This document shows positions 57,401 through 63,400 of a stretch of DNA of 64,000 bases, one piece after another. Made by a program: the position numbers. Origin of the DNA: Leucoraja ocellata (taxonomy: Eukaryota); assembly GCA_036785375.1 (NCBI GenBank), contig JAWMAR010000053.1, forward strand, positions 4,464,001 to 4,528,000, in the 5' to 3' direction. Every line of letters starts with the position of its first letter. The first letter of the stretch is position 1.

Positions 57401-60400
57401 CAAATGAGTGTCACTCATCATCTTGTATCATGTGAAAAATCCATCCAACATTCTACATTTCATCATATTTCCTCATTTGCTGTTGTTCATGCTTCTTTCA
57501 ATTCATCATTTCATTGCTGAATTAATGCTGCTTGTTCTTCTTAATTTTTCATGAACTTAACTGTCCCTCATTTTCATTTTACCACCAGGAGATATTTTTG
57601 CAATCTAATTAATAATAAAATGTAATCATAACTGAAAATATTAATTGATAATTTTGAAATTCAATCTATGTGATTGCTTCTTTGAAAATGTCAGGATGTT
57701 AGTTATCGGAGATATTTAATCAGGTGTATGACTTTAATGTGATTTAAATAGAAGGAAAATGAAACAGAATTATAATGTCATCCAATGGGATGCATACATT
57801 TTTTTTAATGTTATTATTAATAGGAGGATCCCATTTCACATAATACTGAATTTTAAGATTTGACTTTCAGGTTAATAAAATTGTTGTTTTTTATTTTCAA
57901 AATGACAGAAACTGAAGAAGTGCCTATTACTACACTTCCTATCGGTGCACCAGGACCAGTCAAGAGAACTCTTAAAGGTACAATTTCTCAAACTTTATTG
58001 TATTTAAACTTAAAAATATTCAACATATACAATTTTTGTTCAATTTTGTGTGTAAAACTAAAATTATATAGATTTCCCCTGGATCCTAAATGTTGTGTAC
58101 TAGTTGTATCAAATTGTCTCTTCAGTCCATTGAAGTAGTTACAATTTATGTAACTTGTCTTGTGATTCTTTCTGTTAATGTGTTCACTTTGAAATGTTGT
58201 TGACTATGGAGAGATTTCATGGTCTGTTTTTATTTGGTGAACCAGTGTGGTTTGGAGACTGTTTTGATGTTAGACTATTCTTTTAGGAGATTGCAAAATT
58301 CTTTGTTAATTTGTCACTAAATTGAATATGAAACCTTTGTAGCCGCAGAACAACCCAAGTCATCTTTGAAACTAAAACCTGCAGTGCATATTCCAAAAGA
58401 AATAGAAGAAAGAGAAATTTCAATTTTGAAGAAACGTAGTAAGATTCCAGAGAAAGAGAAAGATGAAGAAGCAAGATTGCATATAGAAGATGGCAAAGAC
58501 GTAGGGTTAAAACTCAGGTCTACTGAAAGCCCTAAAGAATTTGAAGCTGATGAAGGTTATACCTTGCCAAAAACAACAGGTTTCATTTTACAAGAGATAG
58601 AAATAAAAAGAGAAGTAATTGTACAGGTGGTTGATGAGATTCATAAAATAGACAAAGATAAAGGGGAAATCTCCATTGTAAAAGATGAAGCTTTGAAAAT
58701 ATTACCAAAAATAACGAGTAAGGTAGCACTGAAGGAAGTGGATAAAGAACCAGTTGCACCATCTAAGAAACTCGATTATGTTTCCAGACAAGAGGAAAAA
58801 GCAGATAAGGTACAATTCAAAAAGTTTGAGATAACTCCTAAAAAAGAAGCTTTAAAAGAAAAACATGGTGTGTCAAAGAAACTGAATGAAATATGCATTG
58901 ATGAAAAAGAAACAGGCGAACAAATGATTCTGGAAAAGGTTGATGTTCCTAAAGCTGGAAAAAATGAAGAGAAATCCATGTTTGTAACTAGATCGGAAGC
59001 AGCTTCCGTAAAGATAGGAGATAGGGGGAAAAAATTAATAAGGCAGGCTGAAGTTCCTGATACAGAGAAGGAGAGGACCCCACCATTGACAAAGCCTAGT
59101 AAATTTTTTGTAGAAAAGGAAGAAGAAGAAAAGCATGAGACATTGAAAATAAGTAGAACACTTCCTCAGCCTGTTGGGGAGAAAACAGAAACACCTAATC
59201 TCACAAAAATTGGTATTCCCAAAATAAGAAGTGAACCATCTCCTAAAAAAGAAATATTGAAAGATATAGATTTTTTTCCAATTGAGGGAGTACCCAGGGA
59301 GATCGTTTTAGAAACACCTGCATCAAAACGAGTACCTGAATTCACTGCAGAAGAAATTGGTGTTCCTAAGACATTTCCCTGTGAAGAAAAAGATGATGAA
59401 ATTCCTTTAAGAATTAGTGAAGGGAAATTTCCTATTACAAAAGAAGAACGAGAAATGGTCCGCCAGAAAGATATTCGTTCAAGAGGAAAATCATTAGGTG
59501 AAAAAGAACCACAAAAGATTGACAAATTGACAAAAAAGCTTACAGCAGATTATAAAGATGAATCAGTTGCAGATACTAAAATTGACAAAAATAAAAAAAC
59601 AGTTTTACAGGAACAGGAGGAACTGCAGGATCGTTTAGAGCTGAAGAAAGTCCCATCAAAAAATATTCTGGTTGAAGAAAAGCTACAGAAAAAAACGGTG
59701 AAGAAAGTATTGACCCCAAGAGATACACCTGATATTCCACACCTTAAAACTGGAAAGGAAAATGTCCCAGTGTCGGAAGCAGAGAAAGATCATATTGAAA
59801 TAAAGAAGATCTCTTCAAAAGGTGTTGCTGTGGAAGAAAAGCCACAGAAAATACCAATGAAGAAAGTACTGACACCCAGAGATACGTCTGATAGTGTACA
59901 TTATAAAACTGGAAAGGAAAAAATTCCCGTTTTGAAAGATCAAGATCATATAGAATTTAAAAAGGTTCCCTCAAGGGAAGCTGCAGTAGAAGAAAAAACG
60001 CATCAAATACCAATCAAGAAAGTACTGACTCCCAGGGACTTGTCAGATACAGTACATTATAAATCTGGAAAGGGAAAAACTCCAGTGCCAGAAGCTGAGA
60101 AAGATCATATTGAAATTAAGAAGGTATCTTCGAAAGGTGTTGCTGTGGAAGAAAAGCATCACAAAATACCAATGAAGAAAGTACTGACTCCCAGAGATTT
60201 GCCTGATACAGTACATCAAAAAACTGGAAAGGAACATTTTTTAAAAGATGAAGGTCGTATAGAATTGAAGAAGGTTCCCTCAAAGGAAGCTGTGGCAGAA
60301 GAAAAGCCACAGAAAATACCAATGAAGAAAGTACATACTCCCAGGGATTTGTCTGATACAGTACAATATAAAACTGGAAAGAGAAAAACTCCACTTTTGG

Positions 60401-63400
60401 AAGATCAAAAAGATCATCTAGAATTGAAGAAGGTTCCCTCAAGGGAAGTTGCAGCTGAAGAAAAGCCACAGCAAATTCCTGTAAAGAAAATATTCACTCC
60501 CAGAGATGCCGCACATCTTAAAGCTGACAAAGAGAGTCCTACAGATAAAGAGCAGGAGATAGTACCGATGAAAAAACTTCCGTCTGAGAGAATATCATCA
60601 TCAGAAGACTATGAAATAGAATCAGAAGAAATGTCAATAGAGGAATTACAGGGCAAAGAAGACTGGGAATGGGAATTAACTGAAGAGGAGGAAGGTGGCT
60701 CATCAGCTGATTGGGAGTATGAAGATGATGAAGAATTGCATGAAGGTGCAGTTGAGACTCCTTCAAAGCCTTACAGACGACGAGGTGAGAGGACTGCTGC
60801 ACACCCACCAAACTGATTTTTCATATCTTGTGCTTTGAAAAATGGATAAATGTTCCTTTATGTTGTGTGTGTTCATCTTTGTTAAACGTATTTGTTTCTC
60901 CTGGCAATGCGAGTTGTGTTTATGTGCATGATGTATTGTGGCTGTCATGTTAAATGTAAATTCATGTCTGTGGCTTATGTTTTGTCCACATAGTCTGATG
61001 GCTCCCAAGAATAAATTGTCTTAAATTGCTTTAATGTTGCTATTAACAGGATTATGAATTAATTAAATCATTTCATTATATTTTGTAAGGCAAAGACCGA
61101 TTACCATTCAAATCATATGGTTTTATATTTCTCTCATTCTAACCAAATACATCTTTTTCATGTTAATTCTCCTCTGGTTGCATGAATACACCTTCGTTTA
61201 GTATATTAAAAAAATGAAAGTATCATTTTTTATTATTTTTTTGTGTGGCATTTATAATTTCATACGTAATATATGTAATATATATTATATATGATATATT
61301 TTGCATTTAAATGCAATACACTTTTTTAGCCTCATCATTTTACGCTCTAATTATGAGAGAAAATTTACAATTATTGACTTGTGAGACAGTAATGATGCAC
61401 TGATAATTATGTTACAATCTCACTACAGATGCTAAGGCACCAGCTGAAGAAGCCAGCAAGGGTAGAGGCTTATTACGAGGTGAGATGGGCTAAGTTGCAC
61501 TTAGTCACAATAAGAATACATGCCTGATTGTAAACATTCATATTTGTATCTCATGCACCACAAAACATCAAGTGCACATACTGTATTTGCAATACTGATT
61601 CAAAGTACAATATCGATAAATTCTAATGCTTTTCTGGGCACCCTATTTACATTTCATTTACATCCGAGTAAACAAAATTAATTACTCTGCTATATTAATG
61701 TTATTTTAAGAATTTAATGTCAAACCATTTGTTTGACCTTTCACTGACAAAGTGGCTGAGCAAACTGAATAGCAACTTGTTTAATTTTGCATGTACTGCC
61801 CCCCTATAACATGCCTGCAGCTCCATAATGTAACATGTGGAACGCAACTAACCCAACTTACTTGAGCATAAGTAATGTATTTGCGTACAGCTGCTGTATA
61901 TCGTTTGCAACTAAGGTTGATGGGGGAAGATTTTACCTAAAAGTAAGCAAAAAATTAATAGTATAATCCATGCTCATAATTAGATTGATAGTGAAATATT
62001 ATATTTGGTACTTTAATGCATGTGGCTTCCTCTTAATATGTGGAAAATGCAATGTTTTGGACTATACACAATTGTTACTATTCAAGATTACTCGGTAATA
62101 TCTGAATCCATGATTGCAAATCTATTCAAGCTGAAATTATAATGAATGTGTGTGATTCAAATCTTGCCATCTGAAATCATTATCGCATGATGGAATGCAT
62201 AGACTTTGAAGGGTGAGCTTGGTCCCATGTTAGCTAGTCAATTTCATTGCTCAGCTTACATCGTCATTGAATTTATCAACTGAAAGTGACACATTGCATC
62301 CAAATGTTAGGTTCAAATAAAATCCACTTCATAAGCATGCAAAAAAACCCAATAAAATCCATTATATTTATATTCAACTCTGAATTTTAGCGAGAAAGAC
62401 ACCATCACCTGGAGACGGAGACAAGAAGCCACTTAAACCAGGTGGAGGGAGGCCACCTTCAGAGGAACCGCCATTTGCAGGGTTCCAACTTAAAGCAGTC
62501 CCGCTGAAATTTGTCAAAGAGTTACAAGATATAGTGCTGGACGAAGCGGAGTCAGTAGGCGCCTCTGCTCTATTCGAATGCCTGATTTCACCATCAACAG
62601 CATTAACAACTTGGATGAAGGATGGGAGCACTATAAGAGAAGGTCCAAAACACAAATTCACCTCTGATGGCAAGGATAGAAAGTTGAATATCATTGATGT
62701 TCAGCTTTCAGATATGGGTGAATATACCTGCGTAGGCCACCTCGGCAAGCAAGAAAAGACGTCCACAGCAAAGCTAATTGTCAAAGGTATTTTTCATTCC
62801 TGCATGACACAAGCCAAAAACAAGACTGTTCATTATGTTATAAAAGTTGCAGTTTAAGAATCCTGCTGGAATTGTTATTAAGCAAATCTTGTTACATACT
62901 TTTCCTCATTGTTTCATTCATTAGTAAGTCTATGCAGTCAAAATTATTAAGCTTGAAGGATTAGTCATTACAAAAGGCTTTTGAAGACATTGCACATTTT
63001 TTGATATTTTTCTATTTTCCTAACTATTTTAGAATCACCAGTGGCCTTCTTTAAAACATTGGAAGAAGAAACCACTATCTTCAAAGGACAGCCCCTATAT
63101 ATGACCTGTGAGCTGACTAAAGACAAACCTGTGGTTTGGAAGAAGGATGGTGTACCAATTGATGACACACAGACCAGATATGCAATTAGTGTCATCGGGC
63201 TACAGCGCTCCATTACTGTCACAAGTTCTGACTTTGAAGATGCTGGAGTGTACTCAGTTGAGACTGCAAACATAAGTTGTGCAGAAAAAGTTAATGTGCA
63301 AGGTTAGTAGAGTTGGATAAAACAAATGCAGAGCTGCTGGATAACTCAGCCAGATGGATGATTATAAGACCATAAAACATAGTAGCTGAATTAGGCCATT

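What the first reader, a model, noticed from the sequence alone, without database searches (positions are those of the whole stretch)
58343..60784. Giant 814-aa exon at the PEVK C-terminus with no mammalian counterpart that I recognise
Seen: 2442 nt fully open, phase 1-1, K/E-rich, with no Ig or PPAK motifs. It sits just before the conserved DAKAPAEE exon, where mammalian titin has only short exons as far as I recall. Its donor (CGAG|gtgaga) is identical to that of the next exon. Read-through gives a stop after 10 codons (60814-60816), with AATAAA at 61010, so a Novex-3-like terminal use is also possible. Inference: an ancestral or fish-specific titin module lost or reduced in mammals.
Basis: partly seen in the sequence, partly recalled or inferred. 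Interest (0 to 1): 0.7.

Follow-up and report, generated by a model that had tools for sequence, protein, structure and literature searches.

The report
Giant disordered exon in fish titin spring
This is most likely a real 2.4-kb coding exon of the muscle protein titin that adds about 814 floppy, charge-rich residues to the elastic region, and its acidic end is also found in bony-fish titins but not in the mammalian fragment examined.

Summary
Window 58343-60784 (+) is a 2442-nt open stretch bounded by AG and GT, in phase 1-1. It is by far the longest open frame in the window. It lies between the last PEVK-type exons and the short exon before the first distal Ig domain of a titin gene, probably from a cartilaginous fish.

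The exon has three parts:
- a 433-residue K/E-rich body with no repeats;
- six tandem units of about 53 residues, whose dN/dS is below 1 in 15 of 15 pairs;
- a 71-residue acidic, tryptophan-bearing tail.

Direct searches with the exon found nothing. Those searches cannot reach full-length titins. A control search with the neighbouring Ig exon retrieved named titin fragments. Two teleost fragments (Lates, Cyprinus) clearly carry the same tail at the same position, and a third (Lucifuga) does so marginally. The carp fragment also has about 320 residues of the same composition upstream of its tail. The Otolemur and Callorhinchus models lack the tail.

The body and the repeats align with nothing and look lineage-specific. 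The most likely role is an internal, probably cassette, exon encoding a disordered spring segment. That role is inferred. The Novex-3-like reading has no support. I found no description of the exon in print.

The parts
58343..60784 (+). Giant titin exon, 2442 nt, phase 1-1, 814 codons counting the two split ones
   Evidence: AG at 58341-2 and GT at 60785-6. Open frame 58321..60816. No in-frame stop, against 61 and 80 in the other + frames. Shuffles reach at most 145 aa.
58345..59643 (+). N-terminal body, residues 1-433: K/E-rich polyampholyte without repeats
   Evidence: Fraction of charged residues 0.43, net charge per residue about 0, P 6.9%. No unit of the 53-aa repeat profile scores here. 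AlphaFold2 pLDDT is mostly below 50.
59644..60570 (+). Six tandem units of 50-53 residues, each with a TPRD core, in two alternating subtypes (super-repeat of about 310 nt)
   Evidence: TRF finds period 159 x 5.3 and period 309-315 x 2.1-2.2. dN/dS is 0.18-0.87 in 15 of 15 pairs. The profile finds exactly 6 units and none elsewhere.
60571..60784 (+). Acidic tryptophan-bearing tail, residues 743-813, conserved in teleost titin fragments
   Evidence: Net charge -18 over 71 residues. Smith-Waterman alignments of the Lates, Cyprinus and Lucifuga segments land on exon residues 742-813, 754-806 and 787-806, with 0/1000, 0/1000 and 8/1000 shuffles reaching the score. With a profile of the three teleost segments, this frame is the top hit of 2080 window frames (E 0.039; domain i-E-value 0.0028).
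60785..60816 (+). Donor GTGAGA and the read-through frame, which ends at TGA 60814-60816
   Evidence: The donor is close to the consensus. Nothing indicates that it is bypassed.
61010..61015 (+). AATAAA in the downstream intron; not taken as part of the feature
   Evidence: Present, but it is one of 67 on the + strand, about one per 955 nt.
57909..57977 (+). Upstream neighbour exon, 69 nt, phase 1-1
   Evidence: Splice strings and length. It corresponds to the segment that the Callorhinchus model joins directly to the DAKAP-type exon.
61429..61479 (+). Downstream neighbour exon (begins DAKAPAEE), 51 nt, phase 1-1
   Evidence: Counterparts are present in the Callorhinchus, teleost and Otolemur fragments.
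62391..62786 (+). Exon with a linker and the first distal I-band Ig domain, 396 nt, phase 1-1
   Evidence: Pfam I-set E 5.4e-13. The best solved relative is titin 3b43 at E 6.9e-34. It is 79% identical over 99% of the query to Callorhinchus A0A4W3JK26.

Best explanation
The stretch is a genuine internal coding exon of titin, lying at the junction between the PEVK segment and the distal tandem-Ig segment. It encodes about 814 residues of intrinsically disordered, nearly neutral polyampholyte. It ends in a strongly acidic tail with tryptophans and is spliced to the short DAKAP-type exon that follows.

The tail is old. It is shared with bony fishes at the same gene position. The body evolves fast under constraint on composition and openness rather than on sequence. 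In this lineage the body has gained six tandem 53-residue units.

By inference, the segment acts in series with PEVK as an extra entropic spring. At 0.38 nm per residue it adds about 310 nm of contour length. Because it is phase 1-1 like all its neighbours, it can be included or skipped without breaking the frame, which would tune titin's extensible length between muscles. The acidic tail may behave like the E-rich motifs of PEVK or serve as a docking motif. That last point is speculation.

Shown: the open frame, the splice signals, the phase, selection on the repeats, the tail homology and the predicted lack of fold. Inferred: transcription and inclusion in this species, cassette behaviour and spring function.
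For: - The open frame is far beyond chance, and the stops in all five other frames show that composition alone does not keep it open.
- The boundaries are canonical AG/GT. All six exons examined from 56064 to 62786 are phase 1-1 with lengths divisible by 3.
- The six repeat units diverged with dN/dS 0.18-0.87, below 1 in 15 of 15 pairs.
- The tail aligns with teleost titin fragments exactly where synteny predicts. The Lates score is 97 against a shuffle mean of 44 and maximum of 82 (0/1000). The Cyprinus score is 75 against a mean of 40 and maximum of 73 (0/1000). Lucifuga reaches 8/1000.
- In the reverse test, z is 7.5 and 6.4 for Lates and Cyprinus.
- With the teleost profile, this frame is the top hit of 2080 window frames, and the hit lies at its C-terminus.
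- In the Lates and Lucifuga models the tail is followed by the counterpart of the next exon, which matches use of the donor at 60784.
- Carp residues 421-800 have nearly the same composition as the exon: E 17.1, K 16.8, P 7.1, V 6.6, I 5.8%, charged fraction 0.41, against K 16.7, E 14.9, P 7.5, I 7.1, V 7.0% and 0.42.
- AlphaFold2 on the single sequence gives mean pLDDT 36.3, with 761 of 813 residues below 50 and only four short helices.
- The charged fraction is 0.42, the net charge is about 0 and kappa is 0.17.
- The exon has no other copy in the window and no Pfam family.
Against: - There is no transcript evidence for this species.
- Direct searches with the exon found nothing: 0 of 7979 candidates of 1424-4065 aa, 0 of 8000 candidates of 447-1423 aa, and 0 hits in 1.84 billion cluster representatives.
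- BLASTP of the exon against the carp fragment gives only E 0.91 for the colinear C-terminal match.
- HMMER statistics for the tail are weak (E 0.039 for the whole frame).
- The body is not alignable with carp.
- The Callorhinchus model and five teleost models (Takifugu, Etheostoma, Arctogadus, Pangasius, Salvelinus) show no tail.
- In the elephant shark, cloned PEVK segments are 372-424 aa in heart and 634-774 aa in skeletal muscle. Both are shorter than this exon alone (PMC12241362, Results).
- dN/dS between paralogous units of a biased sequence is a soft test, and the pairs are not independent.
- AlphaFold2 without an alignment often gives low confidence for folded proteins too.
Confidence: 0.7

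Rival explanations
1. Novex-3-like use. The donor at 60784 is bypassed, translation stops at 60814-60816, and the transcript is polyadenylated after AATAAA at 61010. This would give a truncated titin that ends after the PEVK segment.
For: The read-through frame closes after 10 codons and AATAAA lies 194 nt further on.
Against: - The exon itself holds no stop.
- The donor is strong (CGAG|GTGAGA).
- AATAAA occurs about once per 955 nt on this strand (67 in 64 kb), so one within ~200 nt is unremarkable.
- In the Lates and Lucifuga models the tail is joined to the counterpart of the next exon, not to a terminus.
Confidence: 0.06
2. Relic or silent exon. The frame was coding in an ancestor but is no longer spliced into titin in this species. 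The Callorhinchus gene model, which skips it, would fit this.
For: The Callorhinchus model joins the flanking exons directly. The cloned elephant-shark PEVK segments are shorter than this exon (PMC12241362). There are no transcript data here.
Against: With a stop probability of about 7.6% per codon from its base composition (computed), an unselected 814-codon frame would not stay open. The youngest repeat pairs still show dN/dS below 1. Both splice sites are intact.
Confidence: 0.1
3. Only the conserved 3' part is an exon, entered through an internal acceptor. The upstream 2.2 kb would then be intronic, or split into smaller exons.
For: Cross-species homology is shown only for the last ~70 residues. 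The Lates model starts at the beginning of the conserved block.
Against: The whole 2442 nt is open in one frame and continuous with the tail. The repeats upstream of the tail show coding-type divergence. In the carp fragment, about 320 residues of the same composition run directly into its tail.
Confidence: 0.06
4. A mobile-element open frame, or an independent nested gene, that happens to lie in a titin intron.
For: The window holds mobile-element debris, for example a Pfam ALKBH8_N match at 5540-6187, which I recall as usually LINE-associated.
Against: There is no second copy in the window and no Pfam family. There is no ATG near the 5' end of the frame. It lies on the same strand and in the same phase as titin's exons. 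Its tail is found inside teleost titin models.
Confidence: 0.02

Closest known systems
K/E-rich stretch with an acidic W-tail in teleost titin gene models (Lates japonicus 'titin-like isoform X1'; Cyprinus carpio cypCar_00035785; Lucifuga dentata LDENG_00293770)
   Same: The position is the same: directly upstream of the short G-K/Q-P..EE..GRGRG exon and the TPSPG linker of the first distal Ig. The tail is homologous, with a W-x-W-E-L element and a G-A-V/L-E-T/A-P element. The carp composition upstream of the tail is the same.
   Different: The body does not align. The six 53-residue TPRD units are absent from all 23 named fragments. The exon structure of the teleost genes is unknown to me.
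Titin PEVK segment (PPAK modules and E-rich motifs)
   Same: Both lie in the I-band spring, are unstructured, and are built from phase 1-1 exons that can be skipped. The acidic tail resembles an E-rich motif in charge.
   Different: P+E+V+K is 46% here, against 71-86% in the window's own 16 PEVK exons. The in-window PEVK profile gives no match. The exon is one block of 2442 nt, against 69-84 nt for those exons. The tail gives no signal against the E-rich part of the Otolemur fragment (z -0.2).
Titin N2B unique sequence (a long disordered spring element encoded within one large exon; recalled, not tested)
   Same: Both are several hundred residues of non-repetitive disordered sequence in one large I-band exon, acting in series with Ig and PEVK springs. 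This is how the exon most likely works.
   Different: The position in the gene differs (after PEVK, not between the proximal and middle Ig segments). No flanking Ig domains are encoded within the exon.
Novex-3 exon of titin (a large alternative terminal exon; recalled)
   Same: Both are large exons in the I-band part of the gene.
   Different: This exon holds no stop or poly(A) signal within it, has an intact strong donor, and sits at a different position.

Membership tests
Titin PEVK (PPAK) modules | Sequence match to the 26-28-residue PPAK/PEVK module | tested here: not met
   A profile of 16 of the window's own PEVK exons hits 22 + frames at E<0.01 but not this frame at E<=10. The Pfam result is uninformative, because Pfam also misses the window's own PEVK exons.
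Titin PEVK (PPAK) modules | About 70% or more P+E+V+K | tested here: not met
   46.1%, against 0.71-0.86 in the 16 canonical exons.
Titin PEVK (PPAK) modules | Short symmetric (phase 1-1) exons | tested here: inconclusive
   Phase 1-1 is met. The length is 2442 nt against 69-84 nt.
Titin E-rich (poly-E) motif | A strongly acidic stretch with interspersed hydrophobic or aromatic residues within the spring region | tested here: inconclusive
   The tail, residues 743-813, has D+E 26 of 71, net charge -18 and 6 aromatic residues. There is no alignment signal to the E-rich part of the Otolemur fragment. The definition of the motif is recalled.
Fish titin post-PEVK module (group defined here with the teleost fragments) | Lies directly upstream of the DAKAP/GKP-type exon and the TPSPG linker of the first distal Ig | tested here: met
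   Window order. The Lates and Lucifuga fragments have the same order. The carp fragment goes from the tail straight to the TPSPG linker.
Fish titin post-PEVK module (group defined here with the teleost fragments) | Tail with a W-x-W-E-L element and a G-A-V/L-E-T/A-P element | tested here: met
   Alignments. Shuffle controls give 0/1000, 0/1000 and 8/1000. z is 7.5 and 6.4 for two of the 10 named fragments tested, and at most 1.7 for the other eight.
Novex-3-type alternative terminal exon | A stop codon and a polyadenylation signal within the exon, used instead of a donor | tested here: not met
   There is no in-frame stop in 58343-60784. A stop appears only after donor read-through. The frequency of AATAAA makes the site at 61010 uninformative.
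N2B-us-like unique-sequence spring | A long disordered stretch encoded in one large I-band exon | tested here: met
   A single open 2442-nt exon. Mean pLDDT 36.3, with 761 of 813 residues below 50 (single sequence, so soft evidence).
N2B-us-like unique-sequence spring | Sequence homology to N2B-us | not tested

The most novel reading that the evidence does not exclude
Jawed-vertebrate titin originally carried a second unstructured spring after PEVK: a K/E-rich 'post-PEVK' unique sequence of several hundred residues, closed by a conserved acidic W-x-W-E-L ... G-A-V-E-T-P tail. It survives in cartilaginous and bony fishes, was lost on the way to mammals, and is alternatively included to set the resting length and stiffness of fish muscle. 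The tail would act as a calcium-responsive or ligand-docking element.
Probability: 0.3. Interest if true: 0.6.

Novelty: new variant of a known kind. Interest (0 to 1): 0.42.

Why it matters
Titin's passive stiffness is set by the length of its unstructured springs. An extra segment with about 310 nm of contour length would be longer than the whole PEVK cloned from elephant-shark heart (372-424 aa, PMC12241362). It would change predictions of passive tension in fish muscle.

It would also give a natural test of how sequence-free constraints shape a mechanical protein, since composition, length and charge balance are kept while the sequence drifts. The conserved tail is a small, testable candidate for an interaction or calcium-binding site at the boundary between PEVK and the distal Ig segment.

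Tried and rejected
Searches with the exon itself:
- The search for homologous proteins, 'longer' (1424-4065 aa): none.
- The search for homologous proteins, 'near' (447-1423 aa): none. Both calls draw their seed words only from the first 500 residues and cannot reach titin-sized entries.
- phmmer against 1.84 billion cluster representatives: 0 hits. A titin cluster may be represented by a species that lacks the exon.
- PDB sequences: 0 hits.
- ESM Atlas: no usable hit.
- Pfam: only a sub-threshold GST_N_3 match.

Comparisons that gave nothing:
- BLASTP of the exon against the Lucifuga fragment gave only noise.
- phmmer with single teleost segments against the window frames gave nothing with default filters. 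With --nobias only the 110- and 60-residue carp segments hit, E 0.00033 and E 0.097, both on the giant frame.
- The 53-residue repeat profile found no degenerate units in the N-terminal body, elsewhere in the window, or in the 23 named fragments.

Flanking signals:
- UCUU, recalled as the RBM20-type core motif, is not enriched. The upstream intron has 5 in 365 nt and the downstream intron 4 in 644 nt, against 2.9 +/- 2.0 per 400-nt tile.
- The identity of the two donors was rejected as meaningful, because both are near-consensus.

Literature, six searches:
- I found no description of a giant exon at the C-terminal end of PEVK in any fish.
- I read the abstract, passages, Results and Discussion of PMC12241362.
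- I read passages of PMC6469411, PMC9575118, PMC9635730 and PMC11033294.
- The 2017 zebrafish connectin I-band paper cited there is not in the library.

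Full report
**What is there**

Window 58343-60784 on the + strand is preceded by AG (58341-58342) and followed by GT (60785-60786). It is 2442 nt long and lies inside a stop-to-stop frame of 831 codons, 58321..60816. Its first base is the second position of a codon and its last base is the first position of a codon, so it is phase 1-1.

The frame has no stop. The other two + frames have 61 and 80 stops, and the three - frames have 27, 37 and 18. In 500 shuffles of the same bases the longest open frame averaged 72 codons and never passed 145. 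The second longest open frame of the whole 64-kb window is 331 codons. From the base composition (A 0.424, T 0.21, G 0.215) a random codon is a stop about 7.6% of the time. An unselected frame of this length is therefore not credible.

**Context**

The gene is titin.
- Upstream lie Ig frames, plus a frame with the Pfam tri-helix bundle domain (4758-5000, E 5.8e-12). I recall this domain as part of the N2A region.
- Next comes a run of short PEVK exons. A strict filter finds 16 exons of 69-84 nt, all phase 1-1 by construction. A profile built from them marks 22 + frames between 12.7 and 52 kb.
- Then comes a 495-nt acidic exon (56064-56558) and two short exons (57315-57395 and 57909-57977).
- After the giant exon come a 51-nt exon beginning DAKAPAEE (61429-61479) and a 396-nt exon with a linker and an I-set Ig domain (62391-62786).
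- The best solved relative of that Ig domain is titin (3b43, E 6.9e-34).

All six exons examined from 56064 to 62786 are phase 1-1. Any of them can be skipped without a frameshift.

**Anatomy of the exon**

The product is 16.7% K and 14.9% E, with only 46% P+E+V+K. It has 170 basic and 172 acidic residues. It falls into three parts.
- Residues 1-433 are a non-repetitive polyampholyte.
- Residues 434-742 are six tandem units of 50-53 residues, each with a TPRD core. They come in two alternating subtypes. TRF sees them as a 159-nt period x 5.3 and a 309-315-nt period x 2.1-2.2.
- Residues 743-813 are strongly acidic (net -18), with three tryptophans.

The six units have diverged with dN/dS of 0.18-0.87, below 1 in 15 of 15 pairs. 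This argues that this frame was read while they diverged. The pairs are not independent and the composition is biased, so I treat this as supporting evidence, not proof.

AlphaFold2 on the single sequence gives mean pLDDT 36.3. Of 813 residues, 761 are below 50, and there are only four short helices. The charged fraction is 0.42, the net charge is about 0 and kappa is 0.17. These values are typical of an expanded disordered chain. The fold result is soft, because no alignment was available.

**Direct searches failed, and why that is weak evidence**

Searches with the exon alone found nothing:
- among proteins of 1424-4065 residues (0 of 7979 candidates);
- among proteins of 447-1423 residues (0 of 8000 candidates);
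- in 1.84 billion cluster representatives;
- in PDB sequences;
- in the ESM Atlas.

The first two searches cannot see titin-sized entries and seed only from the first 500 residues. The third holds one representative per 50% cluster, which for titin may be a species without this exon.

**The control search that gave the answer**

The neighbouring Ig frame (62384-62857), sent alone, returned 26 titin fragments at E<=1e-20 among 655 candidates. The only hit covering the whole query including the linker is Callorhinchus milii A0A4W3JK26 (79% identity, 99% coverage). The window is therefore probably from a cartilaginous fish other than the elephant shark. It is not human, and I took no contig for human. 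Three hits had no name (source 'lgn': P0013, P0014, P0016). Their origin cannot be told, so I did not fetch or use them.

Ten named fragments reach upstream of the linker.
- **Lates japonicus and Lucifuga dentata.** The sequence directly before the counterpart of the DAKAP-type exon is an acidic stretch with a W-x-W-E-L or D-W-E element and a G-A-V/L-E-T/A-P element. This matches the end of the giant exon.
- **Cyprinus carpio.** The same stretch runs directly into the linker.
- **Callorhinchus and Otolemur.** These models join the counterparts of the two flanking exons directly.
- **Takifugu and Etheostoma.** These models go from PEVK-like sequence to the GKP-type exon.
- **Arctogadus, Pangasius and Salvelinus.** These fragments show no tail.

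**Is the tail match real?**

Smith-Waterman alignment of each teleost segment against the whole 813-residue exon lands every time on its extreme C-terminus:

| Fragment | Exon residues | Score | Shuffle mean | Shuffle max | Shuffles reaching the score |
|---|---|---|---|---|---|
| Lates | 742-813 | 97 | 44 | 82 | 0 of 1000 |
| Cyprinus | 754-806 | 75 | 40 | 73 | 0 of 1000 |
| Lucifuga (23 aa) | 787-806 | 45 | 29 | 52 | 8 of 1000 |

In the reverse direction, the tail against the ten fragments gives z 7.5 (Lates) and 6.4 (Cyprinus), with 0 of 500 shuffles each. The other eight give z of 1.7 or less, including Otolemur (-0.2) and Callorhinchus (0.1).

A profile of the three teleost segments ranks the giant frame first among all 2080 frames of the window, with the match at its C-terminus. 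The statistics are weak: E 0.039, domain i-E-value 0.0028. BLASTP gives only E 0.91.

The position-specific shuffles, together with the identical place in the gene, make homology of the last ~70 residues well supported. No single E-value would carry it alone.

**What is not conserved**

The first 741 residues do not align with the carp sequence upstream of its tail better than block-shuffled controls (score 193 against 172 +/- 17.5; 36 of 300 reach it). The profile of the 53-residue unit finds six units in the exon and none in its N-terminal body, in the rest of the window, or in the 23 named fragments.

Carp residues 421-800 nevertheless have almost the same composition and charge balance as the exon. 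The picture is a module whose length, composition and tail are kept while the body sequence drifts. The tandem repeats would be an expansion within the lineage of the window.

**How it most likely works**

Three points are inferred from the anatomy and from what I recall of titin's I-band.
- The segment lies in series with PEVK and the tandem Ig segments. Being unfolded, it should behave as an entropic spring adding about 310 nm of contour length.
- It is symmetric in phase, like its neighbours. Some gene models carry the tail and others skip it. Regulated inclusion is therefore plausible, but differences between annotation pipelines or between teleost paralogues would give the same pattern.
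- The tail could act like the E-rich motifs of PEVK or as a docking site. I have no test of that.

**The Novex-3-like idea**

Reading through the donor does reach TGA after 10 codons, and AATAAA lies at 61010. Against that:
- the donor is near-consensus;
- AATAAA occurs 67 times on this strand, once per 955 nt;
- the teleost models continue from the tail into the next exon.

I see no positive evidence for terminal use.

**Known or new**

Six full-text searches found no description of a giant exon at the C-terminal end of PEVK.
- The elephant-shark connectin paper (PMC12241362; abstract, passages, Results and Discussion read) does not mention one. It reports cloned PEVK segments of 372-424 aa in heart and 634-774 aa in skeletal muscle, which are shorter than this exon.
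- Passages of PMC6469411 give a mean length of about 93 nt for the exons of one mammalian PEVK subregion.
- Passages of PMC9575118 state that seven exons (human 219-225) form the constitutive C-terminal PEVK.

The teleost sequences are already in public databases as unnamed parts of gene models. The 2017 zebrafish I-band paper and all supplements were out of reach, so a prior description cannot be excluded. I rate the exon as a new variant of a known kind: an additional unique-sequence spring element of titin.

**What stayed unchecked**
- No vertebrate genome or transcript collection was available.
- I could not test amphibians, sauropsids, coelacanth, lungfish or elasmobranchs. The bird fragment starts downstream of the junction.
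- I could not test whether the elephant-shark genome holds the exon, or whether the exon is transcribed in the source species.

Noticed in passing
window 20757-21427 (+), inside the open frame 20667-21629: A 57-nt unit is repeated 11.8 times with 94% matches, all inside one 320-codon open frame. It encodes 19-residue PEVK-like repeats without intervening introns. The rest of this PEVK region has one short exon per module, so this looks like a recent in-exon expansion.
   Followed up: partly
window 36718-51498 (+): Ten nearly identical 69-nt PEVK exons have the same acceptor and donor strings and are spaced 0.75-3.8 kb apart. This suggests recent tandem duplication of an exon-plus-intron unit, as reported for the repetitive part of mammalian PEVK (PMC6469411 passages).
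   Followed up: no
window 56064-56558 (+): A 495-nt phase 1-1 exon is rich in D, E, I and L, with a loosely periodic acidic-hydrophobic pattern. It has no Pfam match. It may be an E-rich-type element just before the end of PEVK.
   Followed up: no
window 5540-6187 (+); also 3201-3737 (-) and 37191-37520 (-): An open frame runs on from an Ig exon into sequence with a Pfam ALKBH8_N match (E 6.1e-11). I recall that match as usually belonging to LINE-type elements. Two similar frames on the minus strand share long identical stretches with each other but have no Pfam hit. This is probably mobile-element debris in titin introns.
   Followed up: partly
window 45800-46310, both strands: A short G+C-rich island has overlapping open frames of 86-136 codons on both strands, in an otherwise A+T-rich region. 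Its nature is unknown.
   Followed up: no
window 58343-58348: A second AG lies six bases inside the exon (CCGCAG|AAC). It would give an in-frame alternative acceptor that removes two codons.
   Followed up: no
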